From Candidatus Scatocola faecigallinarum (GTDB lineage Bacteria; Pseudomonadota; Alphaproteobacteria; RF32; CAG-239), in contig DVOM01000017.1 in the NCBI GenBank assembly GCA_018713605.1, positions 119-64,118 on the forward strand: a DNA stretch of 64,000 nucleotides. The letters run 5' to 3'. The notes under the pieces were generated by a model that saw nothing but the letters and a program-made list of their open reading frames with translations, ran no database searches and was not told the DNA's origin. A program made the position numbers and the translations under genes. Every line of letters begins with the position of its first letter. Within the stretch, counting starts at the first letter, position 1. Below, one piece after another: positions 32,600 to 47,450 of this stretch.

Positions 32600-33896
32600 A
32601 TTCTTCGCCGTCTTCCTTGACCCGCTCAATGTCGGCGCCGACACCTTTCAGCTTTTCTTCCAGTTTTTCATAACCGCGGTCAAGATGGTAAACGCGGTTG
32701 ACGACGGTTTCTCCTTCTGCCGCCAGTCCGGCCAGCACCAGCGCGAAAGATGCCCGCAGGTCGGTAGCCATGACCGGCGCGCCCGACAGTTTTTTTACCC
32801 CGCGGACAATTGCGGAAGCATGCCCGTGTACGTTAATGTTTGCACCCATGCGCAGAAGTTCGGGAACGTGCATGAAACGGTTTTCAAAAATCGTTTCGGT
32901 AACCATGCCTGCGCCTTCCGCCATGGTCAGCAGAGCCATGAACTGTGCCTGCAAATCGGTTGGAAAGCCCGGAAACGGTTCGGTAATGATGTCTTCGCCG
33001 ATAAGCTTTTTCCCGGTTGCGTCGACCAGAATTCCCCGCTCGGTGGGCACGACTTCCACGCCCATTTTCTGCAAAATCTGCATCGGTGTTTTAAGTGTAT
33101 AGGTCTGCGCGTTAATCAGCTCGATTTTTCCGCCGGTAATTGCCGCGGCCACGGCATAGGAGCCGGCTTCGATACGGTCCGGGATAACCTTGTGCCGCGC
33201 GCCGTGCAGTTTTTCGACGCCCTCAATTGTCAGAATGGAAGTGCCGATGCCCGAAATCTTGGCGCCCATGTCGTTCAGCAGGTTGATTAAATCGCCGATT
33301 TCCGGTTCTTTTGCGGCATTTTCCAAAACCGTAATGCCGTCGGCCAGTGTTGCCGCCATCAAAACGTTGCAGGTTGCGCCGACCGAAACCGTGCGAAAAA
33401 CAATGTGCGCGCCTTTCAGTCTGCCGTCGACTTCGCCGTAAACATAGCCGTTGCGAATATCGATTTTGGCGCCCATCTCTTCCATGGCCGCCAGATGAAT
33501 GTCCATCGGGCGCGTACCGATAGCGCAGCCGCCCGGCAGTGAAAGTTCAACTTTTCCGGCTCGGGCCAGCAAAGGTCCAAGCACATAGTAGGAAGCGCGC
33601 ATCTTGCGCACATAGTCGTAAGGCGCGGCAATGCTTGTCAGCTTCGGCGTACGGTAGGAATAAGTCTTGGTCGGATGTCCGTCGACAAAGTCGTCAAAGG
33701 AATCAATTTGCGTGCCGAGCTGCTCCAGCAGTAGATTCATTGATTTAATGTCTGATAAAATCGGCATGTTGGTCAACGTAACCGTTTCTTCGGTCAGCAG
33801 GCTGGCGCAGATAAGCGGCAGCGCCGCATTTTTGGCGCCGCTGATAAAAATTTCGCCGTTCAGCTGTCTGCCGCCCTTAATCTTAATCTTGTCCAT
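32598..33896 (-). CDS. murA: UDP-GlcNAc 1-carboxyvinyltransferase
   Basis: [45 protein letters not shown]. Confidence 0.98.
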
Positions 33897-34026
33897 TGGT
33901 CTTCTCGTCCTTGTTTTTCAGTTTTTCGCGTTCCTGTTGCTGCTGCCGGCGTTTTTCCAGATTTCTCTGTAAGGCTTTGGCTTCTTTTTCAAAGCGGATT
34001 TCGCTCGGCTTTTTCTTTTTTTCCAT
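33883..34026 (-). CDS. small 47-aa protein upstream of murA (not in the ORF track)
   Basis: [30 protein letters not shown]...; AAGGA RBS; overlaps the murA start. Confidence 0.6.
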
Positions 34027-34384
34027 CAAAAATATCCTTTCCGGTTTCAGAGATTCTCAAACTATAAAACCTCTTAACAAAAAAAGCCATAAAATATTTT
34101 TTTCGGATGCACAGTTGCGGTTCCCTTTTTTTCTGCCATTCTCCGGTATATTCTCCTCCCGCTTCATCCGGCAATCCACGAGGTAAGCCTCATTGCTATT
34201 CATCGAAAAAACTGTTGTCGGCGGCTTTTTTATGTGATGTATACGGCTATAGAACTTACTGCCGGAATATTAAGCCGGAAAACTGAAGTTTTAAAAGTAG
34301 TATTTATTAAGAATTTGACATTTTGATTTCTGACATTAAAAATGAAATAAAAAGCCTGGTGTTTATTTATACAAGGAACAACTA

Positions 34385-34615
34385 ATGAAAACGGGAATTT
34401 ACAGACATTATAGAGGACATGTTTACAGAGTAATGTTTATCGGGAAACATACTGAAACTTTAGAAAATATGGTTGTTTATCAGGCGATAAATGCAAAAAA
34501 TTCCTGTGAAAAATCTTCACCAGACCAAATTTGGGTTCGTCCTGAGAAGATGTTTTTGGAAAATGTTGTCGTTGATGGAAAAAACGTTCCCAGATTTACA
34601 TATTTAGGAAAATGA
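34385..34615 (+). CDS. DUF1653 domain protein
   Basis: GIYRHY.G, HTETLE.MVVYQA, WVRP..MF, PRF. Confidence 0.88.
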   Translation: MKTGIYRHYRGHVYRVMFIGKHTETLENMVVYQAINAKNSCEKSSPDQIWVRPEKMFLENVVVDGKNVPRFTYLGK

Positions 34616-34912
34616 TGCGATAAAAAAGGAAAGAATATTCCGTGTCCGCAACAAATGCGGAATTCTTAAAAATGGTGCGCGATACTGTGCGATTATCGGA
34701 CTGAAAATTATGAGGATTTTAAGCAATTAACCAAGAAAATTGAGCTGTTTGAAGAAAGTTTATCAATATCGGATTTGCCTTTAAACAATTTAATGGTGAA
34801 ATAGTAACGGAAATGATTTGAAAAAAGTACTTTTTTTGTGTAAAATCTATCGAACTTGATAAAATAAAAAAATATTCATACAATGTTTTCAGAAAAGCAT
34901 GGAATTGTATAA

Positions 34913-35557
34913 GTGATAAAAATCTATGAAGCAGAAATGAAACTAGATTTGATTAGTTTTCTTTTGAAAGAACAGCCAAGAACTTTCATTATTGGGTCTG
35001 AAGTTCCTGTCAATCAATCCGAAAATCTAGTAGATATATTAAAAATATCAAAAAGAGCATGTCACGCTTATGAAATAAAAAGTGACCAAGATAACTTTAT
35101 CCGTCTTCCAAAACAAATAGAAACATATACAAGCCTGTTTGATTATACAAGTGTTGTTGTATCAAAAGCTAATTATCATAAAATAATAAAAGAGATTCCT
35201 AAAAAAATAGGGATTCTTGTTATTGATGAAAATCATGTTGTAACGATTAAAAGAAAAGCCACAAAAATTCTCAGATTAAACAAAATGGGCTTGACTAAGC
35301 TTTTGTGGAAAAATGAATTAATCAATATTCTTCAGGATAAGCAAATAGGTACAAAAAAAGAACTTAATAAATTAAGCGATGTTACTTTACGCCAAATCCT
35401 AGTTAGCATATTAACTACAAAAGAACTCAAAAATTTATCATATAAACATTTACTTACGAGATATGTGTATAAATATAAAAATTTTATGGGTAATATAGGA
35501 TTGGAATTACTGAAAGACGATTTATTAGAGCTAAGTTTGAAAAACCAATCTATCTAA
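34913..35557 (+). CDS. sce7726-family PD-(D/E)XK-like protein
   Basis: SE...VD...AYEIKSDQDNFIRLPKQ..Y...FDY..VV; IGI. Confidence 0.75.
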   Translation: MIKIYEAEMKLDLISFLLKEQPRTFIIGSEVPVNQSENLVDILKISKRACHAYEIKSDQDNFIRLPKQIETYTSLFDYTSVVVSKANYHKIIKEIPKKIGILVIDENHVVTIKRKATKILRLNKMGLTKLLWKNELINILQDKQIGTKKELNKLSDVTLRQILVSILTTKELKNLSYKHLLTRYVYKYKNFMGNIGLELLKDDLLELSLKNQSI

Positions 35558-36608
35558 AACGTTTCAATACATTATTTATATACAAATTAACTCTAACAGA
35601 AATCCAATGACTAGGTATTCTTTTGCTTGGTGTTCCTCTAGCTGCTTTTACTATTTCCTGAACACCCCATAAATCATTTTCTAAGTGATTTTGATGTATA
35701 AATTCTATTGCATTTGCAGCCGCTTTTTCATAGCCTCCATCGTCCCTTCTATATCTAAAGAAATTATATATATTGTTGTATGGAATATCAATTCTAGGCA
35801 CCCAAGAACCACCAAAAGAAGCATAGGCAATAGGGTGAATGCTAGCATAATCTCCATAAGATATGTTTTCAATTTTAGATTTTAAGCCTTTGTACAATTC
35901 AAATTCTCTAATTGGAAAACTTCCTCGGCAACCATCAGAATAAATTGTAACGCTTTGGGGAAAACTTGAAGATAAAATAATACATCTGTTTTGCTCAATC
36001 TGCTTATTTTTAATAAAATCTGAAATAAGATTTTTACTGTTTTCTAATATTGTTTCAAGTGAGATTTTGGGATTTAAATAACCAAAGTCAAATAAAAAAA
36101 TAAATTTTTTTAAACGTTTTATATCAACATTTATCAGTGAATTTATTAGATGAATCATCTTTTCATTAAAAATCATACTATCTGATGTAAAGGGAATCCG
36201 AAAAGCAACGTTGTTAAAATTTTCTAACAGGTTGTTTATTTGCAAATTTAAATCTTTATCATCAGGTTTATTTAACAAAACAACACAAGGAATAATATTT
36301 GAATTTTTATCTTTTACTTTTAAACAAAAATCACACCAATTCTTAAATCCATTTGTTTTATTTTTAAATAATTCAATTTGTTTATTGGTATATTCTTTAT
36401 CTGTTGTAAAATCTACGATAAAAGGTTTTCCTTTCATTACATTTAAAACCTTATCTATGTTCTTTTCTATAAGCCCTATACGATCTTTAACTGTTGTGCG
36501 TGACTTGGTAATTTCAATAACTGGCAAGCTATTCTCTAAATCAGTATTTGATAAGGAGACTAATTCAGCTTCTCTTGTGCGTAATAGAGGATAATATAAA
36601 TTTTCCAT
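35550..36608 (-). CDS. beta-family / sce7725-like protein
   Basis: YYPLLRTREAEL, PVIE, SSSFP, YGDYASIHP, PRID, W..VRVN.YI; convergent overlap with sce7726. Confidence 0.72.
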   Translation of the reverse strand: MENLYYPLLRTREAELVSLSNTDLENSLPVIEITKSRTTVKDRIGLIEKNIDKVLNVMKGKPFIVDFTTDKEYTNKQIELFKNKTNGFKNWCDFCLKVKDKNSNIIPCVVLLNKPDDKDLNLQINNLLENFNNVAFRIPFTSDSMIFNEKMIHLINSLINVDIKRLKKFIFLFDFGYLNPKISLETILENSKNLISDFIKNKQIEQNRCIILSSSFPQSVTIYSDGCRGSFPIREFELYKGLKSKIENISYGDYASIHPIAYASFGGSWVPRIDIPYNNIYNFFRYRRDDGGYEKAAANAIEFIHQNHLENDLWGVQEIVKAARGTPSKRIPSHWISVRVNLYINNVLKRFR

Positions 36609-36613
36609 TGCGT

Positions 36614-37117
36614 TTACCTAATTAAATTTAATTTTTTTGCCCTAAATTCACACGCAACACCCGAAACATTAAATTCTTCAGCAAGTCCCAATATTGTGTT
36701 GTTTCCTTTTTTTATTTCATCAAAGAAAGCTTTTTCTGGCATTAATATTCTCGCAGCCAAGTCATTCGCTTGTGCTTCTTCTTTATTTGTATCTGGACTT
36801 CTAAAAAATGAAACATCTTTAAATGCGGCGTTTTCTTTAGCATGTAAAACATAGTGAGCAATCTCGTGGGCAATTGTAAAACGTTTTCTTTTTTCGTTGT
36901 GAAAAGCATTCACATAAATATACCATTTCCCCCCCATATTTTCTAATTTACCTGATAATTCTTTATCCATATGAACATCTTCAATTATTGTTATTCCAAG
37001 CTTATTAGCTACTTGCCTAACATCAATAGGGTGGCTATAGCCTTCCAAAATGTCATTTAATTCGGCAAGACTAATTTTACTTTCCAATAATGGTTCTTCT
37101 ATACTTATAAAGGCCAT
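36614..37117 (-). CDS. ImmA/IrrE family metallopeptidase
   Basis: SG.L, IYVN, RKRFTIAHEIAH, E.QAN..AA.ILMP, LAE.FNVS. Confidence 0.9.
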   Translation of the reverse strand: MAFISIEEPLLESKISLAELNDILEGYSHPIDVRQVANKLGITIIEDVHMDKELSGKLENMGGKWYIYVNAFHNEKRKRFTIAHEIAHYVLHAKENAAFKDVSFFRSPDTNKEEAQANDLAARILMPEKAFFDEIKKGNNTILGLAEEFNVSGVACEFRAKKLNLIR

Positions 37118-37119
37118 AA

Positions 37120-37710
37120 TTACTTTTCCACTGTTAAAGTAACATTTTCAACTTTGTCAAAACAATCCTCATTAAGCAATCCGTCATCACTTTTAATAAT
37201 ATTTCCTTTTAATATCTCTAATTCTTCTTTAATTACACTAAATTTTTCTTGAATTTCATCGTCTATTATACGATCAAGATCGCTTCTTTTTTCTTCAAAC
37301 TTTTCAAGTATAAGTTTTGTAGCTTTCTCCTCTGTCAAAACTTTAATACTATTATAAGCAACTACAGAAAGAATCACAAATGCAAAAGATAAATATGCAA
37401 TTATATTATTATAAAAACTGAGAAGATCATTTGTCTGTATATTTTTATAGTTAATAGGTTGAACAGCCATAACATCTCTCAAAGAAAGATTACATAAAAG
37501 AGTCGTTATAAAAACGATTCCAACAAAGATTACACAATAAGTTATCTTTTTTATAGGAGAATAAATATCAGAATTTTTATGATTATACAAGTGCCAAACT
37601 AAAACGATGATTACACAACACATAGTCCAAACCATTATGTCAATTGACATAATCCATTCTAGAAAGTACCTTATATGTTCTAATTCCTTTTCTTTCACAT
37701 TAAGCTCCAT
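37120..37710 (-). CDS. hypothetical membrane protein (3 TM + charged tail)
   Basis: 196-aa ORF ending 2 bp before immA. Confidence 0.65.
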   Translation of the reverse strand: MELNVKEKELEHIRYFLEWIMSIDIMVWTMCCVIIVLVWHLYNHKNSDIYSPIKKITYCVIFVGIVFITTLLCNLSLRDVMAVQPINYKNIQTNDLLSFYNNIIAYLSFAFVILSVVAYNSIKVLTEEKATKLILEKFEEKRSDLDRIIDDEIQEKFSVIKEELEILKGNIIKSDDGLLNEDCFDKVENVTLTVEK

Positions 37711-37926
37711 AAAATAATTATATATTTTATAGTTTAACCATAGCTAAATTAGGATACAAGCAAATAATAATTATTATACAACACCAAAAAACTTGTTGCC
37801 ATCTATGTCATTAGGTTAATTTAGCTTATTTTACCTCATCAAATTTAGGTGTAAAACATACAATATATTGATTTTTAGAAAAAAGTTAATAAAATGCCAT
37901 TATAAATAAACAAGCAAAAATTGGCT

Positions 37927-37958
37927 TTTTAATTATGGCAGATCTGCCATAATTAAAA
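37927..37958. promoter_or_regulatory. 32-bp perfect palindrome, putative operator
   Basis: TTTTAATTATGGCAGA|TCTGCCATAATTAAAA, ending 26 bp before the KilA-N start. Confidence 0.75.
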
Positions 37959-37984
37959 TTATAACATATTGAAAGGGATAAATA

Positions 37985-38860
37985 ATGTTATTTTTTGGTA
38001 AAAATAAAAAGATTCAAGTTCAAGATACAGATGTATCAATAAAAACCAAAGATGGACAAGATTATATCTCTTTAACAGATATGTTAAAATCCAAAGATGG
38101 TGATTTTTTTGTTTCAGATTGGTTAAGAAATAGAAATACTGTTGAATTTTTGGGTGTTTGGGAAAGCATGAACAATCCAAATTTTAATTATGGCGGATTC
38201 GCCGCAATTAAAGAAAAGGCCGGATTAAATAATTATAAGATTAGTGTAAAAGAATGGATTGAGAAAACGAATGCTATCGGATTAATAGCCAGTAGCGGCA
38301 GATATGGCGGAACGTATGCCCATGTAGATATTGCTTTTGAATTTGGTATGTGGATCAGTCCGCAATTCAAGTTATATTTAATTAAAGAATATCAGCGCCT
38401 TAAACAAGTTGAAAGCAATCAATATAATCTAGAATGGAATGTTAAACGTATGATTAGTAAAACCAACTATAATATTCATACGGATGCGATAAAAGAAATT
38501 ATTATTCCTCAAACAACACATTGGATGAAAAGCTTTGAATATGCAAAAGAGGCAGATTTACTTAATTTAGCTATATTTGGAATGACGGCAAAGGAATGGA
38601 AAGAGCAAAATCCAGAAAGAGATAAAAGAGGTGAAAATATGCGTGATTCTGCAAGTATTGTGGAATTAATCGTTATTTCTAATGCTGAGAGTTTAAATGC
38701 TGAAATGATTAAAGAGGGAAAATCTAAAAAAGAAAGATTTGAAAAAATTCAGCAAATGGCTAAAGATCAAATGAAAATTTTAGCTAAAAATGATTCCTTA
38801 AAATCTTTAAAAAAGACAAAAGAAGATATCTATCTAACAGCTATGGAAACTAAAGATTAA
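37985..38860 (+). CDS. KilA-N domain DNA-binding protein
   Basis: DYISLTDM, WLRNRNT.EFLG.WE, GRYGGTYAH.DIAFEF..WISP.F.LYLIKEYQRLK. Confidence 0.9.
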   Translation: MLFFGKNKKIQVQDTDVSIKTKDGQDYISLTDMLKSKDGDFFVSDWLRNRNTVEFLGVWESMNNPNFNYGGFAAIKEKAGLNNYKISVKEWIEKTNAIGLIASSGRYGGTYAHVDIAFEFGMWISPQFKLYLIKEYQRLKQVESNQYNLEWNVKRMISKTNYNIHTDAIKEIIIPQTTHWMKSFEYAKEADLLNLAIFGMTAKEWKEQNPERDKRGENMRDSASIVELIVISNAESLNAEMIKEGKSKKERFEKIQQMAKDQMKILAKNDSLKSLKKTKEDIYLTAMETKD

Positions 38861-38893
38861 AAAAGTAAACATATTGTCTTTAATGTCATTACG

Positions 38894-39490
38894 TTACAAC
38901 ATTCTCTCAATAAACCGTCTCAATATGCTGCGTTGGACACCGAGGATTTTGGCAATTTGGGATTTGGAGATGCCTTTGGCGAGTAAATTTCGCACTCTTC
39001 TAGCATTTTTTGAGAGTTTGAGCTTTTTTGATTCTGCGGAAAAGGGACGTCCGAGCTTTTTTCCTGAAGCCTTAAGATTGGCAAGGGATGATTTTGTACG
39101 TTGGGATATTAGGTTTCTCTCTATCTCTGCAGCCAATCCAAAAGCGAACGCTAAGACTTTACTTTGTATGTCATTGCCGAGACGATAGTTTTCTTTCAAA
39201 GTCCAGACCTGACAATTTTTTGATAAGCAGGTTTCCAAAATTCTCATAACTTCAAGCAACGAACGCCCGAGACGGGATATTTCGCAAGAGATAAGGATGT
39301 CATTTTCCTGCAAATTCTCTAATAATTCACCAAGTTTGCGGTTTTTCAGCGCTTTTCGGGAAGATATTTTTTCCTCTACCCAATCGTCAACGGTCAATTC
39401 GTGCTTTCTTGCATATTCTTCAATCTCAAAGCGTTGATGTGTATAGGTTTGTTTGTCTGTGCTAACCCGAATGTAACCAATTACAGCCAT
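38894..39490 (-). CDS. small serine recombinase, Mpi-like DNA invertase/resolvase
   Basis: GYIRVSTDKQ, EISRLGRS, AEIERNLISQRTK, LGRP, C-terminal HTH. Confidence 0.92.
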   Translation of the reverse strand: MAVIGYIRVSTDKQTYTHQRFEIEEYARKHELTVDDWVEEKISSRKALKNRKLGELLENLQENDILISCEISRLGRSLLEVMRILETCLSKNCQVWTLKENYRLGNDIQSKVLAFAFGLAAEIERNLISQRTKSSLANLKASGKKLGRPFSAESKKLKLSKNARRVRNLLAKGISKSQIAKILGVQRSILRRFIERML

Positions 39491-39743
39491 TGTTTTCTCC
39501 TTAAAATTTCTTAAAAATACCGGTTATTTTATTAGAACGATAAAATCAACCGCTTTTTGCAAGTTTCGCACTTTTTCTTTTCAATAAAAAATCAAGAAAA
39601 AATAATGGCTTGTTTTCTTTTGACTCGGGATGCATCTGTCTTTTAGACAACCGGTCACAATCGTTGGTTCGTGTATAGTGAAACAGTCTAGCTTGGCTAG
39701 ATTACAAACTTTAATTGCAATTAAAGATAAGGAATTGAAACTT

Positions 39744-42206
39744 ATGAAGAAAAAACTTTTATTTACAACGGCTTTAGTGGCTCTGGTCTGCACTTCTAAT
39801 GTCTACGCAGCAGATTTGAGTATACAAGCTGGTGATAATATTTTTAACCCTGCAACAGGACAACCAGATGGACAGACAACGTATAATTATGACTCAATCA
39901 GTATGACAGGGGGCAAACTTACCTTAGAAGATTTTAAAATAAGAAGTAATAGCGATGCCTCCATTACTGGCGGTGAAATTAATATTTCTGGCGATGGCGG
40001 TCTTAGAGCCCATAATGGAAACTTAAATATCAGCGGTGGAACGATTAATGCTTCAGCAACCGAAATCCATGGCGGAATAACTAATGTTTCTGGTAATGCA
40101 ATAATCAATGTCAATGATTATGCCGAATTTGCTGGGGATTCCGAGCTGAATATGTCTGGAGGACAACTAAATTTATCAAAGGGAATTACGATTGTTTCGT
40201 TGCCAGATCAACAGACTGGAGGAGATGCTTTATTCAATATGACCGGCGGTGAAATTAATATGAGCCAGTCTTATTTAGGGAGTTCAAGAATTGAGGGAAC
40301 TTCCATAACTGAAAGGCAAGCTGGGACCAGTAAGCTTTTGGGTGGTACGATTAATGTCAAGGATGGTAAAAATATTTTCCTAATGGATAATCCAGAAGTT
40401 AATAACACAATAAATATAAATGAAGGAGCTGAGCTAGGTGTTTATGATCACTATATAGATGCACGGACAGGGAAAATTGAAGATATAAATTTTGCTGGTA
40501 AAAGCACTCTTAACCTGAGTGAAAAGGCGGAAATAAATATATCCGGTAAACTTGTTTCTGACGTTTCCGGCAACGGTAACTTAAATGTAAAATCTTCAAG
40601 CGCGTTGATTGACGGTAACGTTTCCGGCTCCAACCTGACTTTTGAAGCAGACCATTCTTTAAGCAAGGCATTTTCCGGCACAATCGGCGATTTGGCTTCT
40701 CTGAATGTCAACAAAGGCACTTTGACTTATGACAAACAGACCGGTAAAATCGGCAATCTGAATGTCACCGGTGGTTTGGATATTGGCACAAATACCGTAA
40801 ATGCCACGAATGTTGATTTCAAAGATAATTCCAGCCTGGCCTTGCGCGTGGCTGCTACTGACAACTACGGCAAAATCAATGCCGATAATATCACAATCGG
40901 TAAAGATACGACCATGAAAGTAACGCTTGATAATGGTGTTGTTGGTAATGGCGAAAATACGGATTTGAAGTTTTTGAACGGTAAAGTAACCGGAAGTTTC
41001 ACGAATAAAATTGCCGAAAACAGCCGGTATGACATCAAATGGAATGAAGACGGTTCCTTAAATATTACCGGAACAGCGACGGCTTCTGATGTTGTTACGG
41101 ATGCCGGAGGTACGACTTCAAATGCTGCAACGGCCGAAGCTTGGGATACGTTGGTACAATCAACAACGGCAAGCGCCAATGCCAAAGCGGTTGCTTCGGT
41201 CTTGAATGATTTGTCGCAAGAAACTTCTGCTGCAGGTAAAAAAGCTTATGTCGATGCTTTGACAGCCGTAGCGCCGGAAGTTGCGCCGATGGTTCAGAAA
41301 ACTCAGACTAAAACGGCCAATCAGGTATTCGGCGCAGTCAGCACTCGCTTGACCGGCGGTTCAATCTCGACTGGTTCTGAGGGTATGTCATCAGGTGATT
41401 CTAATCCTGACGCTGCTGTCTGGGTTCAGGGACTGTTCAACAAATCAAAATTGGACGATACTTCTAAAGCCAAAGGTTTTGATGCAGACAGTTCCGGTAT
41501 TGCTTTCGGTGCCGAAAAGTTTGTAAACGATGATGTCAAAGTCGGTGTCGGTTATGCTTACACAAACACCGATATTGACGGTTTTATGCGTTCAACCGAT
41601 GTTGATACACATACCGCGATTGTTTACAGTGAGTACAAACCGTCTAACTGGTATGTAAACGGTATCGCGACATACGGTTGGTCTGATTATTCCGAAGATA
41701 AAAACGTTAATGGAATTGGTGTAAAAGCTGACTACGATGTTGAAACATTCGGTTTGCAGGCTATGACCGGTTATGATATGCAAGTCAAAGGCTTTGGTTT
41801 AACACCGGAAGTCGGTTTGCGTTATGTTCACATCAAACAAGACGCTTATAAAGATTCTGCCGACCAAAAAGTTTCTGGTAATGACAGCGATATTTTGACC
41901 GGTGTCATCGGTGCCAAGGTCAGCAAGAACTTTGAGCTGTCTAACGGCATGAACATCAAACCGGAAGCCCGTGTTGCCGCAACTTATGACTTGTTTAACG
42001 ATGATGTTAATTCGGTCGTAACTTTGACTAACGGTTCAGCTTATGCCGTTGAGGGCGAGGCTCTTGACCGTTTCGGTATGGAATTTGGTGCCGGCGTAAC
42101 TGCTGAGCTTAACTCTCAGGTTGAGCTGTCTCTTGGTTATGAAGGAAAGTTCCGTGAGGATTACCAAGACCATACCGGCTTGTTGAATGCTAAATATAAA
42201 TTTTAG
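39744..42206 (+). CDS. autotransporter (type V) outer-membrane protein
   Basis: Signal peptide MKKKLLFTTAL; GG-rich beta-helix passenger; C-terminal beta-barrel ending in YKF. Confidence 0.92.
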   Translation: MKKKLLFTTALVALVCTSNVYAADLSIQAGDNIFNPATGQPDGQTTYNYDSISMTGGKLTLEDFKIRSNSDASITGGEINISGDGGLRAHNGNLNISGGTINASATEIHGGITNVSGNAIINVNDYAEFAGDSELNMSGGQLNLSKGITIVSLPDQQTGGDALFNMTGGEINMSQSYLGSSRIEGTSITERQAGTSKLLGGTINVKDGKNIFLMDNPEVNNTININEGAELGVYDHYIDARTGKIEDINFAGKSTLNLSEKAEINISGKLVSDVSGNGNLNVKSSSALIDGNVSGSNLTFEADHSLSKAFSGTIGDLASLNVNKGTLTYDKQTGKIGNLNVTGGLDIGTNTVNATNVDFKDNSSLALRVAATDNYGKINADNITIGKDTTMKVTLDNGVVGNGENTDLKFLNGKVTGSFTNKIAENSRYDIKWNEDGSLNITGTATASDVVTDAGGTTSNAATAEAWDTLVQSTTASANAKAVASVLNDLSQETSAAGKKAYVDALTAVAPEVAPMVQKTQTKTANQVFGAVSTRLTGGSISTGSEGMSSGDSNPDAAVWVQGLFNKSKLDDTSKAKGFDADSSGIAFGAEKFVNDDVKVGVGYAYTNTDIDGFMRSTDVDTHTAIVYSEYKPSNWYVNGIATYGWSDYSEDKNVNGIGVKADYDVETFGLQAMTGYDMQVKGFGLTPEVGLRYVHIKQDAYKDSADQKVSGNDSDILTGVIGAKVSKNFELSNGMNIKPEARVAATYDLFNDDVNSVVTLTNGSAYAVEGEALDRFGMEFGAGVTAELNSQVELSLGYEGKFREDYQDHTGLLNAKYKF

Positions 42207-42226
42207 TATTTAGTCTTTCCTTTGCT

Positions 42227-42264
42227 AAAAAGCGCTTCGGAAGCAATTTCGGAGCGTTTTTTTT
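42227..42264 (+). terminator. intrinsic terminator
   Basis: GCGCTTCGGAA-GCAA-TTTCGGAGCGT plus T-tract. Confidence 0.8.
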
Positions 42265-42401
42265 ATTGTTTCCGTCTGTTTCTTAGTAATCCCGTCCAAA
42301 TCGTAGCAAAATGTCATCAAAAAGTAGAAAATAAGGGGCTCGCGGATGGGATTTTTCCCGACATAATAAAACTGTAAATAACGCAAATACAGGAGATTAC
42401 A

Positions 42402-42545
42402 ATGTACTTTATCGAATTAAGATACACCAATGGAAAGACTGTCAGATTACCTGAGCCATATATTTCATGGTCGGAAGCTAACCGTGCTGTCTTAAACAAG
42501 TATGCTAACAACCCATACTACACGGCAAGTATTGTATCAGAATAA
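42402..42545 (+). CDS. small 47-aa hypothetical protein (not in the ORF track)
   Basis: AGGAG RBS; MYFIELRYTNGKTVRLPEPYISWSEANRAVLNKYANNPYYTASIVSE. Confidence 0.6.
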   Translation: MYFIELRYTNGKTVRLPEPYISWSEANRAVLNKYANNPYYTASIVSE

Positions 42546-42561
42546 TGAAAGGGAATTTAAG

Positions 42562-42819
42562 ATGTTGAAGAATTTTGAAAATTGGCTTTTGAAAAATAAT
42601 TACAGCGCAAGCACTTCTGCCGATTATATGGGACGGATTGAGAGATTATGCCGGAAAGAACAGTTTACACTTTCCCATTTGGTTGAAAATCTTTCCTCTA
42701 TCCTTCCGCAATATGAAACAACCGGAGAAAAATCCAGTTATGGAAAACGCTCTCATACATCCGTTCGCCAGGCTTTGAGACGTTTCAAGATGTTTCTTGC
42801 TTCCGAAAAACTGGCTTAA
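42562..42819 (+). CDS. hypothetical protein (integrase SAM-like N-terminus)
   Basis: FENWL...YS.ST...Y...I and ALRRF..FL pattern; AAGGGA RBS. Confidence 0.6.
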   Translation: MLKNFENWLLKNNYSASTSADYMGRIERLCRKEQFTLSHLVENLSSILPQYETTGEKSSYGKRSHTSVRQALRRFKMFLASEKLA

Positions 42820-42834
42820 GGCAGGAGATGTAAT

Positions 42835-43038
42835 ATGAGTAATGTTAAATATCCTGAAATAACTGTTAGAATCATCGGTGTTAATGGCAATGCTTTTAAT
42901 ATCTTGGGTATCTGTACGGCTGAAATGAGAAAACACCATCTGCCAAAATCGGAAATAGACGCCTTTTTTAAGGAAGCGACAAGCGGCAGTTATGATGATT
43001 TGCTTTGTGTTGTCATGAAATGGTTTAATGTGGAGTAG
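42835..43038 (+). CDS. small mobile-element hypothetical protein
   Basis: G.NGNAFNILG, EA.SGSYDDLL; AGGAG RBS. Confidence 0.75.
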   Translation: MSNVKYPEITVRIIGVNGNAFNILGICTAEMRKHHLPKSEIDAFFKEATSGSYDDLLCVVMKWFNVE

Positions 43039-43042
43039 CACC

Positions 43043-43360
43043 ATGCCGGATATTAAAACCTTAAATAACAACCTTAGAAAAACGCTTATCGGTGGAAGAG
43101 TTGTCTTAACCCAAGGTATTAATGTCAAAATGCCAAAAGATATTGCAAGGATTTTAGCAAAAGTCAGGAATTTTAACAATTTTACCAAAGCTAACGATCC
43201 ATACGGAGAACACGATTTTGGAAGTTTTGATTATAACGGTGAAAAGATATATTGGAAGATTGATTATTATGACAAGAGTTATCAACACCTATCAGAGAAT
43301 CCTGCAAATCCAAACATAACAAACAGAGTCTTAACTGTTATGCTTGCAGATGAGTATTAA
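43043..43360 (+). CDS. DUF3768 domain protein
   Basis: NDPYGEHDFG, WKIDYYD, RVLTVMLADEY. Confidence 0.9.
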   Translation: MPDIKTLNNNLRKTLIGGRVVLTQGINVKMPKDIARILAKVRNFNNFTKANDPYGEHDFGSFDYNGEKIYWKIDYYDKSYQHLSENPANPNITNRVLTVMLADEY

Positions 43361-44311
43361 AAGATAAAACTTCAAAAATCAGCCCGGTTTGATTGGTTTC
43401 AGGTCGGGCTTATCTTTTACCTGTTTTATCAAATCCGCTTGTTTACGGGCTGTTTATGACTCAATGGGATATGTTAAACCTAATTAAAATTGTAAATGAG
43501 GTTGTAAAAAATAAATTGTCGTTAATGTCAAAAACTTTTACAATCTATTGTCCTTGAAGTCATGAAGTTAAATTAACCTCTGCCAAAATTTACATAAGTT
43601 GCGATTGCCGCGCCATACATAATAATAACCTATTCACAATGTTTTATAACTATCAAAAGAATTTGATATTGTTGTATTGTCGCGATTCTTTGGGAATGTA
43701 AAGCCATTTTTCAATAATTTTAAATATCTTGTTTTTTGATTGCAGGACTCAATAGATTTATTTGATATAGGCTTGCTTAGATTTTTGTTAAACGGCTTGT
43801 TACGGGTTGTTTTATGCTTGTTTATGGAAGTGTTTTGGTTGCGATTTATATATTTTAAGACATTTGAAGATAAAAACGATTCTATTCATATAGTTTATAA
43901 TTATTATGTATTCGGTTTTATGTATTTTATCTAAATGTCATAACTCCTTATTTTTTTACACTCAATTTTCATATATATTACTTATATGATGGTATAATAT
44001 CAAATTTATTTTTGCACCATTTAACTATGGAAATAAAGCCTTTGTAAGTACGTTGACTTTGTTTTTTCTTATGAATTTTCTGTTTTTTTCGCAACAGATT
44101 AAAAAAGTTATTGTCGTTGACGACACAAACTTAAATATCCATGACCTGTGACCTAGCTATGTCATAGGTTAGGAGAATGTTTCTCTACTGAAAAATGCCT
44201 TCCTTTATACAATCAACCTATATAAGAGGCGCCTTTTTTAGCTTATTTTATCAAAAATATTTTTTTCATAATTGGCTTTACGTCTTTATTCAATCCCGGC
44301 ATATAATTATT

Positions 44312-44476
44312 ATGACTGATACATTTAACAAAATAGAAGAAGAATTGTCGCGTTATTATCCCGATATTACGGATGATGATGTCGAAAAGCTTATCACATT
44401 TTTTAAGTTAAGTGCCAAAGCTATCTATGAAGCTAAAAGAGCAGAAAATCCATTAAATGACATCAATGACAGTTAA
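44312..44476 (+). CDS. small hypothetical protein upstream of the recombinase
   Basis: 54-aa ORF; TATAAT just upstream (possibly leaderless). Confidence 0.45.
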   Translation: MTDTFNKIEEELSRYYPDITDDDVEKLITFFKLSAKAIYEAKRAENPLNDINDS

Positions 44477-44672
44477 TCATAAAGCCAACCTCTTCTCCTT
44501 AAAGTGAAGAAGTTAACATCCAACCTCATTTATTTTGCAAATTAGGTTAATTGCTTGAAATATCAGCAATTTGTTAGTAAAAAAACTGCAAAATGACGCA
44601 TTTTTTTGCGTACATTCCCAAAATAACACGACATAATAACATTATCGGACTAATTTTAAGGAGTAATTTGTT

Positions 44673-46112
44673 ATGTCTAGAAAGAATAAATATCAAAATA
44701 TCGCGGATGAAGAATGTAAACAGGCTGTTATTTTTGCACGTGTCTCATCGGAAGAACAGAAGAAAGGCGCTTCTATTGACGCACAGCTTAAAACGGTTAT
44801 TGATTACTGCGATAATCGCAAGTTTAAGATTTTAGATAAATTCTCTATTGTGGAGAGTTCAACGCGAGGCGGTCGTATCAAATTTTATGAAATGTTGGAA
44901 TATGTCAAGCAACAAAAACACAAAACTGCCATCGTTGTAAATTGTGTAGATAGATTGCAGCGTGGCTATAAAGAATGTGTTGAGCTTGATGATTTAAGAA
45001 AACAAGGCAGAATAGAGATACATTTTTATAAAGAAGGCTTTTATTTGCATAAAGACAGTACCTCTTCGGATATATTGCGTTGGGACATGGGTGTGTTATC
45101 CGCTAAAATGTATGTAGGCTCATTAAGAGATAATGTCATCAGAAGTCAGGAATATAAAAGAGAAAACGGACAATGGCAATCTTGCGCTCCGGTCGGTTAT
45201 TTAAATATATCCAAAACCAAAACGACTCCGGCAGACATTGTTATAGATGAAGAGAGAGCACCAAAGGTTAAAAGACTTTTCGAAGAATATGCCAAAGGCG
45301 GACGAACTTTGCAAGACATTACCAATCTAGCCAGAACCTTAGGATTATCTTCTAAAATGTGTCGTGTAAATAAAACAATCAGCCGGGCACAAATTCAAAA
45401 TATTCTTAAAAACACCTTTTATATTGGATATTTCACGCAAAAAGGCAAAGTTTATAAGCATAATTATCCGCTTTTTATTGATGAAGATTTATTCCGTATT
45501 GTCCAGGATACAATGGAAGGAAGAAAACGGGCGCCAAGCAAATTATATTATGGCGATAAGCAATATATCTTTACCGGTTTAGTTAGATGTGGTTGTTGCG
45601 GCAGTTTAATGACTTGTGAGACTAAAGTAAAAGATGAAAATCATTCCTATAATTATCTTAAATGCAATAAATTACGTTCAAAATGCAGTCAAAAACCATT
45701 AAATGAAACCAAAATCTTAAAACAGCTGGAAAATGAGCTTTGCTTACCTCTTGCCATCAGTGATGATATGTTGAAAAATATTAAGGCGGAAGTTAAAAAG
45801 CGGCTTAAAGAAGAAAATATCAATACAGCCAATCTTAAACGTGACATTACAATAAAGCTGCATGACCTTGACGAACAGATAAAAACCTTATTTCGTGGCT
45901 ATATCCAAGGCAAATGTGATGAAAAAATGTATAATGAACTTAAAACCGAGATTGAACTGGAAAAAGAAAAGCTTCAAAAAGATATGGACAGATACCTTGA
46001 GATTGATACTGAAACAGATGAAATCTTGGCAAATATTGCTGAAGTGGCTGCAAATGTTGGAAAATTCTTAAAAAGTCCGATTATTTCACAAAAAAGAGAC
46101 ATTTTAAATTAA
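44673..46112 (+). CDS. large serine recombinase; C-terminus frameshifted and split by att
   Basis: FARVSSEEQ, DRLQR, APVGY, N.FYIG, Zn ribbon CGCCG...C...C, coiled coil; AAGGAG RBS. Confidence 0.92.
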   Translation: MSRKNKYQNIADEECKQAVIFARVSSEEQKKGASIDAQLKTVIDYCDNRKFKILDKFSIVESSTRGGRIKFYEMLEYVKQQKHKTAIVVNCVDRLQRGYKECVELDDLRKQGRIEIHFYKEGFYLHKDSTSSDILRWDMGVLSAKMYVGSLRDNVIRSQEYKRENGQWQSCAPVGYLNISKTKTTPADIVIDEERAPKVKRLFEEYAKGGRTLQDITNLARTLGLSSKMCRVNKTISRAQIQNILKNTFYIGYFTQKGKVYKHNYPLFIDEDLFRIVQDTMEGRKRAPSKLYYGDKQYIFTGLVRCGCCGSLMTCETKVKDENHSYNYLKCNKLRSKCSQKPLNETKILKQLENELCLPLAISDDMLKNIKAEVKKRLKEENINTANLKRDITIKLHDLDEQIKTLFRGYIQGKCDEKMYNELKTEIELEKEKLQKDMDRYLEIDTETDEILANIAEVAANVGKFLKSPIISQKRDILN

Positions 46113-46201
46113 TATTATCGGACTGCAAAACTGATGGAAAAATCTTTGTTTTTCAATAGCTAAACCATTCGACAGACTACTAAAAACGCCAGAAATTAAC
46201 A

Positions 46202-46408
46202 AATGGTGCCGCTGGCAAGAATGTAAATTCCCATTGCTTAAAAGCAACGGGTCCCTTTCGCGTCGTAAGGTTCAAACTTCGTATTTCACTAAGCTATTCG
46301 CTAAGTTCAACACTCGTTTTCACCAACTACCCGCTCCGGACGTTGCTTCGCAAGTCTGTCCTCGCCCAATAACCATTAAAAAAGCCCTCCATAAAGGAAG
46401 GCTTTTTT
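46202..46408. mobile_element. 207-bp miniature element flanked by a 21-bp duplication of the tRNA-Thr 3' end
   Basis: AATGGTGCCGCTGGCAAGAAT at 46202-46222 and 46409-46429. Confidence 0.7.
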
Positions 46409-46410
46409 AA

Positions 46411-46485
46411 TGGTGCCGCTGGCAAGAATCGGACTTGCGACCCCGTCATTACCAATGACGTGCTCTACCACTGAGCTACAGCGGC
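46411..46485 (-). tRNA. tRNA-Thr(GGT)
   Basis: GCCGCTGTAGCTCAGTGGTAGAGCA-CGTCA-TTGGTAA-TGACG...CAGCGGCACCA. Confidence 0.96.
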
Positions 46486-46647
46486 GACAACTGAAAGAAA
46501 ACATACAGATTATAAAAATAAAAATCAAGTATATTTTTCATTTTTTGTGAATTTTTTTATACATTCGCCAACAGGCATAAAATTTGGTGCAAAAATAAAA
46601 AATTAGGTTATGATAAAAATATGTTTTCATAAATAAAGGTTCTAATC

Positions 46648-47367
46648 ATGAAATATTCAACTGCTGCGTTAAAAGAAAAAATTCGTTCCTGGTTTGCCGA
46701 ACCTCAGGGCAAAGCGCGCATCGCCTGTCAGGTTTTTGCCGTTTTGCTGGGGCTGGCCGCTCTTTTGATGATTATTGCATCCGTGGCTTACGGCTCCGTT
46801 ATTGGACTGTTGGTATCGTTGCTGGTCGCGCCGCTGCTGATTTTGCTGCCGTTTTATTTTTATCATTTTTTCCGTACCATGCTGCATGGTGTTGCCGACA
46901 AACAGATTCGGCATCGCGAGCGTGCGCGTCAGGCCGAAGAATACAATAATATGCCTTTCCGCCGGACTTTTCGCGGTATGGCTTTTTATCTGACCGGTTT
47001 CATTTTGCTCGTAACCATGCTGATGGGACTTTTGACCCAAAGTTACGACATCTTTTTTGAACTGGCGCTCATGTTGCCGATGATGTATCTGATGTATCGC
47101 GGTTATCGCTGGATTTTTGTTTTTGCCATTTTATGGTGGACGTTTGAGAAAGGGCTGCAACTGTATGTCGCGCCCGGCAGTGCGTCAATAGCCAGTATTT
47201 TGGTTTGGTGGGCGGTTGTAACCTATGTTTATTTTCAGGCATATAAAGTCGAGGCGGTTCGCGCACGGCTTCCCGGTGCACCGCGCAAACCCTGGCTGAA
47301 AGACCTCGGCCTGGCTTTGGGGGCGTTTGTTTTACTTGCCGCCGCCCTCCATACGCTGATTTACTAG
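46648..47367 (+). CDS. hypothetical multi-pass membrane protein
   Basis: 239-aa ORF, about 7 hydrophobic segments. Confidence 0.7.
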   Translation: MKYSTAALKEKIRSWFAEPQGKARIACQVFAVLLGLAALLMIIASVAYGSVIGLLVSLLVAPLLILLPFYFYHFFRTMLHGVADKQIRHRERARQAEEYNNMPFRRTFRGMAFYLTGFILLVTMLMGLLTQSYDIFFELALMLPMMYLMYRGYRWIFVFAILWWTFEKGLQLYVAPGSASIASILVWWAVVTYVYFQAYKVEAVRARLPGAPRKPWLKDLGLALGAFVLLAAALHTLIY

Positions 47368-47450
47368 CCTTGTCTTGTGTCATTTTTAGCTGGCATTTTA
47401 AATTTAAGACGTTATCTTACTCCTTGATAAGTTAATGAAGGAGAAGATAA

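What the first reader, a model, noticed from the sequence alone, without database searches (positions are those of the whole stretch)
34670..46435. tRNA-targeting large serine recombinase whose C-terminus is swapped by integration, with readable att architecture
Seen: core AAATGGTGC at both island ends. The recombinase frame (after two single-A corrections) reads ...KTPEINK-W-C across the right core. At the left end, a start-less frame 34670-34804 reads K-W-C-AILCDYRTENYEDFKQLTKKIELFEESLSISDLPLNNLMVK*, in the same phase through the core. Excision would therefore fuse a 41-aa tail onto the enzyme, whereas the integrated form ends in antisense-tRNA-derived residues. The motif ATCGGACT lies 17 bp from TGGTGC in the tRNA (46428) and 22 bp from it in the island arm (34695). 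Established: the zinc-ribbon-domain motif of large serine integrases is offset by 5 bp between attB and attP, and integrase genes split by their own att site are known for archaeal SSV-type tyrosine integrases. Inference: directionality may be controlled by alternative C-termini rather than, or in addition to, an RDF.
Basis: partly seen in the sequence, partly recalled or inferred. Interest (0 to 1): 0.78.

Follow-up and report, generated by a model that had tools for sequence, protein, structure and literature searches.

The report
tRNA island with self-split serine integrase
An 11.5-kb foreign island sits at the end of a threonine tRNA gene, and its integrase gene runs across the island's own joining site, so insertion cuts off the enzyme's last 41 residues; the layout is real and common among relatives but has been noted before, and this copy is broken.

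Summary
Window 34679-46200 is a low-GC island joined to the 3' end of tRNA-Thr(GGU) by a large serine recombinase (LSR). Its attP lies inside the LSR gene. The P arm and the core encode ...KTPEINKWC. The opposite island end continues the same frame for 41 codons.

That tail is found in many relatives and varies like coding sequence. It is contiguous with LSR C-termini at 6 island-to-island junctions and in 7 metagenome ORFs. It shares a W-x5-Φ-R-T motif with unsplit distant LSRs. An empty site exists in a congener, and one metagenome contig joins 34679 to 46211.

This copy is decayed. Two real 1-nt deletions stop the ORF at 479 aa. A 186-bp integrase-less insert separates the right junction from the tRNA.

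A conserved 54-61-aa gene upstream of the LSR is predicted to dock at the zinc-ribbon/coiled-coil junction, as directionality factors do. This favours an ordinary RDF, perhaps with the tail as a modifier.

The architecture is in print for Dehalococcoides DsiB (2011) and, for tyrosine integrases, Mx8 and SSV. This scan has also noted it on other genomes. I file it as a new member of a known kind, of moderate interest.

The parts
34642..34669 (.). Host (B) arm of attL: the hairpin-bearing flank that lies downstream of tRNA-Thr where the site is empty
   Evidence: Same sequence type follows the unoccupied tRNA-Thr of G006 and flanks attL in G017. A contig of run X6 ends this flank at 34679 and continues at 46211.
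34670..34678 (+). Left copy of the common core AAATGGTGC (attL); TGG is the antisense of the tRNA's CCA end
34679..34702 (+). P' half-site of attP, with the outer motif ATTATCGGACT at 34692-34702, 5 bp further from the core than in the tRNA
   Evidence: A pattern covering the core's last six bases plus this arm is found in 53 of 201 family genomes, with 0 hits for the reversed control.
34670..34804 (+). Detached 3' end of the LSR gene: K-W-C plus 41 codons plus a stop; no start codon, and a stop one codon before K
   Evidence: Translation. Conserved as WCAILC.YRT..Y.DFK.L.RKIELF. pN/pS 0.64-0.67 in this frame against 0.96-1.22 in the other two. Contiguous with LSR C-termini elsewhere.
34679..46200 (.). 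Island body, about 11.5 kb, GC 0.26-0.46. Cargo: sce7726/cll-like and Beta protein, CapP-like M78 peptidase, KilA-N/PDC-S22, Mpi-type invertase, autotransporter, DUF3768
44312..44473 (+). Conserved 54-aa small protein (inside ORF 44195-44476), a candidate recombination directionality factor
   Evidence: Found upstream on the same strand for 22 of 24 LSR starts that have at least 500 nt of upstream DNA held. Alignment A5. Predicted to bind LSR residues 362-378, 447-481 and 497-503: score 0.80, best control 0.00.
44641..44651 (+). Third copy of ATTATCGGACT, between the likely -10 box and the ribosome site of the LSR gene; a possible operator
   Evidence: Present in 8 of 12 unique LSR upstream regions.
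44673..46112 (+). LSR gene as it stands: 479 aa with resolvase, recombinase and zinc-ribbon domains, ending early at TAA
   Evidence: Pfam E-values 2.9e-15, 9.1e-12 and 2.5e-7. Unbroken relatives have 513 aa up to KWC.
46102..46110 (+). First frameshift: one base missing relative to five relatives
   Evidence: A run X6 contig has an extra T behind 46101; X1, X3 and X4 match the window.
46138..46142 (+). Second frameshift: run of 5 A where relatives have 6
   Evidence: Two run X6 contigs have an extra A behind 46137; X1, X3 and X4 match the window.
46113..46200 (+). Out-of-frame remainder of the LSR C-terminal coding region, which is also the P arm of attP
46201..46209 (+). Right copy of the core AAATGGTGC (attR)
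46202..46222 (-). Displaced 21-bp copy of the tRNA-Thr 3' end
   Evidence: 100% identical to 46409-46429
46223..46408 (.). 186-bp integrase-less insert ('E186') ending in a two-way terminator hairpin (46372-46414); it separates attR from the tRNA
   Evidence: Found in 79 of 201 family genomes, as a rule between a 19-21-bp tRNA 3' copy and the tRNA. No Rfam family at E<=1.
46411..46485 (-). tRNA-Thr(GGU), intact; B' half-site with ATCGGACT at 46428-46435

Best explanation
Window 34679-46200 is a genomic island of an uncultured gut alphaproteobacterium. A large serine recombinase (LSR) inserted it at the 3' end of tRNA-Thr(GGU).

The element's attP lies inside the LSR gene. The P arm is the codons ...KPFDRLLKTPEINK. 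The 9-bp core holds K-W-C, with TGG being the antisense of CCA. The P' arm and the next ~100 bp, now at the far end of the island, are the enzyme's last 41 codons. The complete gene of about 554 codons therefore exists only on the excised circle, or where another island's left end abuts it. In the chromosome the gene ends 1-13 codons into antisense tRNA. This part is shown by sequence comparison.

The outer motif ATCGGACT sits 5 bp further out in P' than in the tRNA. This is the register shift that marks attP against attB in serine integrases.

This copy is dead or dying. Two 1-nt deletions stop the ORF at 479 aa. A 186-bp mini-element later inserted into the tRNA left only 13 bp of the tRNA half-site next to the island.

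Inferred: excision in intact relatives is driven by the conserved 54-61-aa protein encoded about 250 bp upstream of the LSR. It is predicted to dock on the zinc-ribbon/coiled-coil junction, as RDFs do. Whether loss of the tail also changes activity or direction is open.
For: - Island and target: GC trough. tRNA-Thr at 46411-46485. The B arm equals the flank of the empty site in G006, and a 4-kb sister island sits in G017. A run X6 contig joins 34679 to 46211.
- LSR identity: three Pfam domains. The model of a relative matches solved LSR-DNA complexes (6dnw Z 11.1, 9y66 10.6, 4kis 10.5, 9iu9 10.3, 9rah 9.2).
- Frame across the core: of 38 unique LSR C-terminal ends, 26 run straight into tRNA-Thr. 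These include all 16 full-length genes (513 or 521 aa), which end KWCR*, KWCH*, KWCRR* or KWCR(W/Q)QESDLRPRHYQ*. Six run in phase into a P'-type tail.
- Seven metagenome ORFs of 83-134 aa join the LSR C-terminus to the tail.
- Tail as coding sequence: in 46 unique copies, variability by codon position is 0.33/0.21/0.42 beyond nt 30, and pN/pS is 0.64 against 0.99 and 1.22 in the other frames.
- Tail structure: two helices at pLDDT about 90 in the model of a natural tail-bearing ORF.
- Tail homology: ten distant LSRs (22-29% identity, six of them 503-530 aa) carry a contiguous W-x4-7-[FYIVL]-R-T tail.
- Clade-wide habit: 40 of 93 representative C-ends read like antisense T-arm (W....DSNPRP).
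- Decay: (frameshifts also in X1, X3 and X4; unbroken allele in X6). (insert).
- Candidate RDF. Complex score 0.80 (runs 0.79-0.81), best of 3 controls 0.00. That mark was reached by 58 of 80 solved complexes and 2 of 110 mismatched pairs, which holds only roughly because my own alignments were used. The runs agree in at least 99% of contacts, and partner pLDDT is at least 80. The docking place fits the published RDF site (passages of PMC12286644).
Against: - No complete LSR-plus-tail gene was seen. None of the 6 junctions in genomes has one: open frames are 77-370 aa, and one (L102) is cut by a contig end. None of the 7 metagenome ORFs has one.
- No circle junction appeared in the contigs of four runs. 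Contigs drop rare forms, so this is weak evidence.
- Tail-only profile comparison with the tails of in-family paralogues is weak: hhalign P 0.01, probability 4%.
- pN/pS of 0.64 is only moderate constraint, the pairs are not independent, and 18 of 46 tails have a stop within 29 codons.
- The first 30 nt of the tails were selected by my own search pattern, so their near-invariance proves nothing.
- The complex prediction is a model. LSR-RDF complexes have been solved, so part of the score may reflect likeness to them.
- The order of events at the right end cannot be told (island first and insert second, or the reverse).
Confidence: 0.82

Rival explanations
1. One reading: the two alternative C-termini set direction. 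The full-length, circle-encoded enzyme integrates. The tail-less chromosomal enzyme excises, with or without an RDF.
For: The tail is conserved and predicted to be structured. It starts 8 residues after the last LSR residues predicted to touch the candidate RDF (497-503 against KWC at 511-513). A published suggestion holds that C-terminal extensions of some LSRs may block the RDF site (passages of PMC12286644). In phage Mx8, integration changes the integrase's C-terminus and its specificity (review passage, PMC6070905). In phiC31 the extreme C-terminus lies at the ZD-RDF interface (passage).
Against: There is no functional data. I could not read contacts of the tail in the model, because only confidence and secondary structure are returned. 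Unsplit in-family paralogues keep a tail permanently and still carry the small-protein gene upstream (L045, L046, L047, L050). A tail therefore does not exclude that partner. The tail shows no likeness to the small protein (hhalign P 0.37).
Confidence: 0.15
2. The tail is a leftover. The working enzyme ends at the core. The left-end frame is kept only because it overlaps the P' binding site and neighbouring regulatory DNA.
For: All 16 full-length genes seen are in the tail-less state. Tail length varies from 24 to 44 aa, and 18 of 46 copies have early stops. Solved LSRs align only up to model residue about 295, so they have no counterpart of the tail.
Against: Constraint specific to that frame extends 30-87 nt beyond the core, outside a 25-bp half-site. 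The frame is unbroken across all 6 junctions and 7 ORFs. The W-x5-Φ-R-T motif is shared with unsplit distant LSRs. The tail is predicted with high confidence.
Confidence: 0.1
3. The gene is completed in the chromosome, not on the circle. The left end of a neighbouring island supplies the missing tail. This is the alternative offered for DsiB.
For: Tandem junctions with an in-phase tail exist in 6 loci. One example is G010, where an older LSR remnant is followed by a second island and an intact LSR at the tRNA. The authors' suggestion is in PMC3146451 (passage).
Against: No junction LSR was seen complete: five are N-terminally truncated remnants (77-370 aa open), and the sixth (L102) is cut by a contig end. 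The intact genes are always the tRNA-proximal, tail-less ones. Regaining a tail does not go with being kept intact.
Confidence: 0.05
4. The two frameshifts are assembly errors or programmed shifts, and the window's LSR is functional.
For: The second break lies in a run of A and the first in or beside a run of T. A run of A can be a site of slippage; this rests on recalled general knowledge, not on a call.
Against: Separately assembled contigs of X1, X3 (same study as the likely source) and X4 (another study) show the same letters with no gap. An unbroken allele exists in X6. All five aligned relatives have the extra base at both places.
Confidence: 0.03

Closest known systems
DsiB, the CcrB-like large serine recombinase of Dehalococcoides ssrA genomic islands (McMurdie et al. 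2011, PMC3146451; passages read)
   Same: An LSR of about 540 aa at the island edge. Its gene always overlaps the att repeat at its 3' end, with no stop until the neighbouring DNA. The target is the 3' end of a tRNA-like gene. Islands stack in tandem, and a small serine recombinase is on board. The authors already proposed that the gene may be fully functional only on the circle or beside an adjacent island.
   Different: The target here is a true tRNA (Thr), not tmRNA, and the host is a gut alphaproteobacterium. For DsiB the authors judged the overlapping part divergent and probably non-functional, and did not identify a conserved detached tail. Here the detached tail is identified, conserved, and shares a motif with unsplit relatives. 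I did not compare DsiB sequences with this LSR.
Myxophage Mx8 IntP/IntX and fusellovirus SSV integrases (tyrosine family); passages in PMC6070905 and PMC4383910
   Same: attP lies inside the integrase gene. Integration creates a gene with a new 3' end. For Mx8 the changed enzyme stays active with altered specificity.
   Different: These are tyrosine recombinases with an unrelated fold and chemistry. SSV splits the gene into two large parts rather than removing a short tail.
Integration-dependent immunity of actinobacteriophages (passages of PMC8092301)
   Same: attP lies inside a gene, often at a tRNA 3' end. Integration shortens the product by 20-35 residues, with the stop formed at or just after the junction. 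The two forms differ in function.
   Different: The split gene is the repressor, not the integrase. The integrase is of the tyrosine family, and the removed part is a degradation tag.
Phage-type large serine integrases (Listeria A118/LI, phiC31, Bxb1, SPbeta)
   Same: Same domain order and fold: Pfam and structural matches at Z 9-11. Short att sites. The zinc-ribbon motif is shifted by 5 bp between attB and attP (phiC31 preprint passage; Rutherford 2013 seen as listing and abstract only). The RDF site lies at the ZD/coiled-coil junction.
   Different: In those systems the solved enzymes have no counterpart of the two-helix tail (alignments end at model residue 285-295). From recall, their attP lies outside the integrase coding frame. 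tRNA genes were stated not to be known targets of serine integrases in 2014 (PMC4383910 passage).

Membership tests
Large serine recombinase / serine integrase | N-terminal resolvase catalytic domain with the active-site serine motif | tested here: met
   PF00239, E 2.9e-15, residues 18-168. ...ARVSS... is read from the DNA at 44734-44760 and is invariant or nearly so in alignment A6.
Large serine recombinase / serine integrase | Recombinase domain followed by a zinc-ribbon domain with an inserted coiled coil | tested here: met
   PF07508 E 9.1e-12 and PF13408 E 2.5e-7. The model of a relative has long helices at 152-199 and 205-228 and matches LSR-DNA complexes at Z 9-11.
Large serine recombinase / serine integrase | Short attP and attB sharing only a small core, with the outer (zinc-ribbon) motif 5 bp further out in attP | tested here: met
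   The shared core is 8-9 bp. ATCGGACT is at +17 in the tRNA and +22 in P', start to start. This was seen for the right half-sites only; the left half-sites show no clear mirror motif by eye.
Large serine recombinase / serine integrase | Catalyses attP x attB recombination | not testable with these tools
   Only indirect evidence: the empty site in G006 and the 34679-to-46211 contig in run X6.
Integrase gene that spans its own attP (DsiB / Mx8 / SSV kind) | No stop codon between the integrase body and the core; the frame runs into the target DNA | tested here: met
   Met in relatives: all 16 full-length genes run through KWC into antisense tRNA-Thr. In the window itself the frame is broken by two deletions.
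Integrase gene that spans its own attP (DsiB / Mx8 / SSV kind) | The other element end continues the same frame from the core | tested here: met
   In phase at 6 of 6 junctions and in 7 of 7 metagenome ORFs.
Integrase gene that spans its own attP (DsiB / Mx8 / SSV kind) | The continuation is homologous to the C-termini of unsplit relatives | tested here: inconclusive
   For: HMMER alignments of 25-33%-identical unsplit LSRs run through the tail, and the W-x4-7-Φ-R-T motif occurs in 10 distant rows. Against: the tail-only profile comparison gives P 0.01, probability 4%.
Integrase gene that spans its own attP (DsiB / Mx8 / SSV kind) | Circular form with the joined gene observed | tested here: inconclusive
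   No 'goes back' joint at 46209/34679 in the contigs of 4 runs. Contigs cannot show rare forms.
Recombination directionality factor (for the 54-aa ORF 44312-44473) | Small protein encoded on the element and linked to the integrase gene | tested here: met
   22 of 24 LSR starts with enough upstream DNA have it on the same strand, 157-658 nt upstream.
Recombination directionality factor (for the 54-aa ORF 44312-44473) | Binds the integrase at the zinc-ribbon/coiled-coil junction | tested here: inconclusive
   Model only. Score 0.80 against a best control of 0.00. That mark was reached by 58 of 80 solved complexes and 2 of 110 mismatched pairs, which holds only roughly because my own alignments were used. 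The runs agree in at least 99% of contacts, and partner pLDDT is at least 80. The interface is LSR 362-378, 447-481 and 497-503. Solved LSR-RDF complexes exist, so likeness may contribute.
Recombination directionality factor (for the 54-aa ORF 44312-44473) | Switches the integrase to attL x attR recombination | not testable with these tools
No Pfam, PHROG or NCBIfam family matches it.

The most novel reading that the evidence does not exclude
The detachable tail is a built-in gate on the RDF site. On the circle the full-length enzyme carries two extra helices that leave the protein 8 residues after the predicted RDF-docking surface. They hinder RDF binding or coiled-coil release, so the enzyme can only integrate. 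Integration removes those helices and thereby arms the enzyme for RDF-driven excision. The act of integration would itself reset the recombinase's direction. This would hold across a very large clade of tRNA-targeting serine integrases.
Probability: 0.13. Interest if true: 0.8.

Novelty: new member of a known kind. Interest (0 to 1): 0.42.

Why it matters
Serine integrases are valued genome-engineering tools because their direction is strict and set by a separate factor. A large natural clade whose gene is cut by its own reaction gives a ready-made pair of enzyme forms, with and without a 41-residue tail, plus a candidate partner protein. With these one can test whether the C-terminus contributes to direction.

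The case also adds tRNA genes to the targets of serine integrases. A 2014 database paper stated they were not known to use tRNA genes (passage). This bears on island-finding software that assumes tyrosine integrases at tRNA sites.

For this window the practical message is annotation. The 479-aa ORF is a truncated pseudogene. The orphan frame at 34670-34804 belongs to it. The island is probably fixed in place.

Tried and rejected
- Tail-only profile against the tails of six in-family paralogues: weak (P 0.01, probability 4%). Not used as support.
- Tail against the small upstream protein (is the tail an RDF mimic?): no likeness (P 0.37). Rejected.
- Search for a free form. tblastn of the junction protein P0003 found no match in 72,556 plasmid records or 50,697 phage records. 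In IMG/VR, 25 pattern hits gave no confirmed relative.
- Word-based search for longer proteins holding the tail: 8 candidates, 7 hits, all 83-134 aa, no full-length gene.
- Circle junction: not seen in the contigs of X1, X3, X4 and X6.
- RNA: no RNA holder listed, so nothing can be said on expression.
- Rfam at E<=1 over 33500-47500: only the tRNA and three sub-threshold chance-level hits; nothing for the 186-bp insert.
- I considered the 186-bp insert as a tmRNA or tRNA-like gene fragment. ARAGORN and Rfam give nothing.
- I tried by eye to place the crossover dinucleotide from mirror symmetry of the P arm. I found no convincing mirror motif and make no claim beyond 'inside the shared 8-9 bp'.
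- Literature: six searches, judged from their listings and abstract starts. They showed no paper on a tRNA-targeting serine integrase whose gene spans attP. The precedents came from leads in earlier notes of this scan and were then read. Supplementary files were not requested. McMurdie's Figure S6 may show the att repeat inside dsiB in more detail.
- The AF2 output gives no contacts, so I could not determine where the tail packs.

Full report
**1. What is at the coordinates**

The window has a GC trough (0.26-0.46) from about 34 to 47 kb in a roughly 0.5-GC background. ARAGORN and Rfam place tRNA-Thr(GGU) at 46411-46485 on the minus strand. A 479-aa ORF at 44673-46112 has the three domains of a large serine recombinase (LSR): resolvase, recombinase and zinc ribbon.

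AAATGGTGC occurs at 34670 and 46201. As a bare 9-mer this is not remarkable: 4 copies against 1.06 expected. The frame 34670-34804 reads KWC plus 41 residues plus a stop, with no start. ATCGGACT lies 17 bp (tRNA) and 22 bp (island arm) from the start of TGGTGC.

There is one omission. The right core sits in a 21-bp copy of the tRNA 3' end (46202-46222, identical to 46409-46429). A 186-bp insert separates that copy from the real tRNA.

**2. Boundaries**

The DNA left of 34670, a hairpin followed by A-rich sequence, is the same flank that follows an unoccupied tRNA-Thr in congener G006. It also forms the outer side of attL of a 4-kb sister island in G017. In an independent wastewater metagenome (run X6), one contig runs along the left flank to 34679 and continues at 46211, with 26 letters on the short side. 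This is the empty form at the predicted boundaries. No circle junction was seen, but only contigs, not reads, were available.

**3. The LSR frame crosses the core**

The host belongs to a family of uncultured gut Alphaproteobacteria (record titles). In that family, 160 of 201 genomes match a junction protein.

Over all loci held, I found 38 unique LSR C-terminal ends:
- 26 run straight into antisense tRNA-Thr. These include all 16 full-length genes (513 or 521 aa to KWC), which stop after 1-13 further codons.
- 6 continue in phase into a P'-type tail.
- 3 run into the 186-bp insert.
- 3 run into another insert.

Aligned with five unbroken relatives, the window lacks one base near 46102-46110 and one A in the run 46138-46142. 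Separately assembled contigs of X1, X3 and X4 carry the same letters. X6 contigs carry an extra T behind 46101 and an extra A behind 46137. The frameshifts are therefore real mutations of this lineage, and the gene is a 3'-truncated pseudogene.

**4. The detached tail belongs to the enzyme**

- A pattern covering the core's last six bases plus the P' arm occurs in 53 of 201 genomes, with no hit for the reversed control.
- Twelve tails align as WCAILC.YRT..Y.DFK.L.RKIELF.
- In 46 unique copies, variability beyond nt 30 is lowest at codon position 2 and highest at position 3 (0.33/0.21/0.42). pN/pS is 0.64 in the tail frame, against 0.99 and 1.22 in the other two frames. The pairs are not independent, and the first 30 nt were fixed by my search pattern.
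- A word search of 5.8 billion proteins found seven ORFs of 83-134 aa in which the LSR C-terminus and the tail are one frame.
- A full HMMER scan of 1.84 billion representatives with a natural 330-aa tail-bearing ORF (G010) found 4,611 relatives at E<=1e-3.
- In a 94-row alignment of these relatives, 40 of 93 C-ends read like antisense T-arm (W....DSNPRP). The split layout is therefore a habit of a large clade.
- Ten distant rows, six of them 503-530 aa, carry a contiguous W-x4-7-[FYIVL]-R-T tail like ours.
- AlphaFold2 on that alignment gives mean pLDDT 91.5. The tail forms two helices (297-310, 312-329) at pLDDT about 90.
- Solved LSRs align only up to model residue 285-295.

Evidence on the other side:
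- A tail-only profile comparison with in-family paralogues is weak (P 0.01).
- No complete LSR-plus-tail gene was found. The 6 junction LSRs are 77-370 aa remnants, and one is cut by a contig end.

**5. How junctions with a tail arise**

In G010 an N-terminally truncated LSR is followed in phase by the left end of a second island. That island's own intact LSR abuts the tRNA. The sequences to the left of P' arms are very diverse: 31 of 46 are other hairpins, 7 are the terminator of the 186-bp insert, 4 are the TCCGCA hairpin, and 4 are LSR C-termini.

I infer that the enzyme recognises mainly the tRNA half-site. Newcomers would then insert at the tRNA-proximal side of residents, a form of tandem accretion.

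**6. The right end here**

The 186-bp insert recurs in 79 of 201 genomes, sometimes in several copies. It typically lies between a 19-21-bp copy of a tRNA 3' end and the tRNA itself, and it also occurs at other tRNAs. It is an independent integrase-less mini-element that enters the T-loop region. In the window it leaves only 13 bp of the tRNA half-site next to the island. Either order of events gives the present structure. Island first and insert second needs fewer assumptions.

**7. Direction control**

A 54-61-aa protein (window 44312-44473) is encoded on the same strand 157-658 nt upstream of 22 of 24 LSR starts for which at least 500 nt of upstream DNA were held. This includes unsplit paralogues. 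It matches no Pfam, PHROG or NCBIfam family.

A complex prediction of LSR residues 175-514 with this protein scored 0.80 (runs 0.79-0.81), against 0.00 for the best of 3 controls. That mark was reached by 58 of 80 solved complexes and 2 of 110 mismatched pairs. It holds only roughly, because my own alignments were used. The runs agree in at least 99% of contacts, and partner pLDDT is at least 80. The interface is LSR residues 362-378, 447-481 and 497-503. That is the base of the coiled coil and the end of the zinc-ribbon domain, where published work places RDFs (passages of PMC12286644). LSR-RDF complexes have been solved, so likeness may contribute to the score.

The same paper suggests that C-terminal extensions may block the RDF site in some LSRs. 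In phiC31 the extreme C-terminus lies at the ZD-RDF interface. Here the tail starts 8 residues after the last predicted contact.

Against it, paralogues that always have a tail keep the small gene. I also could not read tail contacts from the model.

**8. Comparison with what is known**

- McMurdie et al. 2011 (passages) reported that dsiB, a CcrB-like LSR of Dehalococcoides ssrA islands, always overlaps attL at its 3' end. They proposed that it may be fully functional only on the circle or next to an adjacent island.
- Mx8 and SSV (tyrosine family) extend across attP.
- Integration-dependent immunity splits a repressor in the same way.
- The Islander paper stated in 2014 that serine integrases were not known to target tRNA genes.
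- My six literature searches, judged by listings, showed no paper on a tRNA-targeting split LSR.
- Earlier notes of this scan describe the same layout at other tRNAs in other genomes, mostly CPR bacteria. One of those notes is marked as partly fallen.

**9. Verdict**

This is a real and well-defined case of a known kind, and in this window a decayed copy. New here are:
- the gut alphaproteobacterial tRNA-Thr family;
- the evidence that the detached tail is conserved protein-coding sequence;
- a conserved candidate RDF.

The functional meaning of the tail swap remains untested.

Noticed in passing
window 46223-46408 (also L022, L042, L125-L148): A ~186-bp integrase-less element with a conserved ~94-nt core (46248-46341) and a terminal two-way terminator. 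It is found in 79 of 201 family genomes, up to 6 matches per genome and sometimes in tandem. It is flanked by 19-21-bp copies of a tRNA 3' end, and it also occurs at tRNAs other than Thr. It has no Rfam family. It looks like a miniature mobilisable cassette that targets the T-loop.
   Followed up: partly
window 44641-44651: The att outer motif ATTATCGGACT also lies between the likely -10 box and the ribosome site of the LSR gene, and in 8 of 12 unique LSR upstream regions of relatives. It may be an operator for self-regulation. ATCGGACT occurs 6 times in the window against 1.45 expected, and 5 of the 6 lie in LSR or att context.
   Followed up: partly
window 46074-46124: Inside the LSR gene the same 8-mer occurs as an inverted pair (46074-46081 minus strand, 46117-46124 plus strand). 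The pair spans 51 bp, the size of an attP, about 100 bp before the real core. Both copies are also conserved codons (KSPI and LSDC), so this may be coincidence or a second binding site.
   Followed up: no
window 34913-38860: The cargo looks like anti-phage defence. PADLOC hits: 'cll' (3.3e-21) with 'beta' (3.1e-58), a CapP-like M78 peptidase (2.9e-28) beside a 196-aa ORF of no family, and PDC-S22 (KilA-N protein, 4.5e-122).
   Followed up: no
window 37928-39490: An Mpi-family DNA invertase (38894-39490, NCBIfam 2.2e-81, just at cut-off) lies near a 33-nt inverted repeat pair (37928-37960 and 38180-38212) that brackets the start of the KilA-N gene. Summed contig depth at 38170-38596 is 3-20 times the neighbouring bins in all four runs. 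This may be an invertible switch or a repeated segment.
   Followed up: no
L011 (G006:C18:28000-42000): In this congener, aroA and tRNA-Thr are in the opposite relative orientation to the window. The tRNA site is empty. Within the 4.5 kb beyond it lie three P'-type island left ends with small remnants between them. This looks like a decayed array, perhaps inverted by recombination between att sites.
   Followed up: partly
L038, L043, L071: A second kind of insert (beginning GGGTACTCCCGCAAAAGCGGGG) follows 12-13 nt of the tRNA copy after the LSR core in three loci. It takes the same position as the 186-bp element.
   Followed up: no
L045-L051 (paralogous LSRs of 529-541 aa): Family genomes also hold unsplit LSR paralogues (25-33% identical in the C-terminal part) with no tRNA within about 1 kb. 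Their tails are constant up to ...QMYK and then differ between genomes. This hints that their own att core may lie at the very end of the gene.
   Followed up: no
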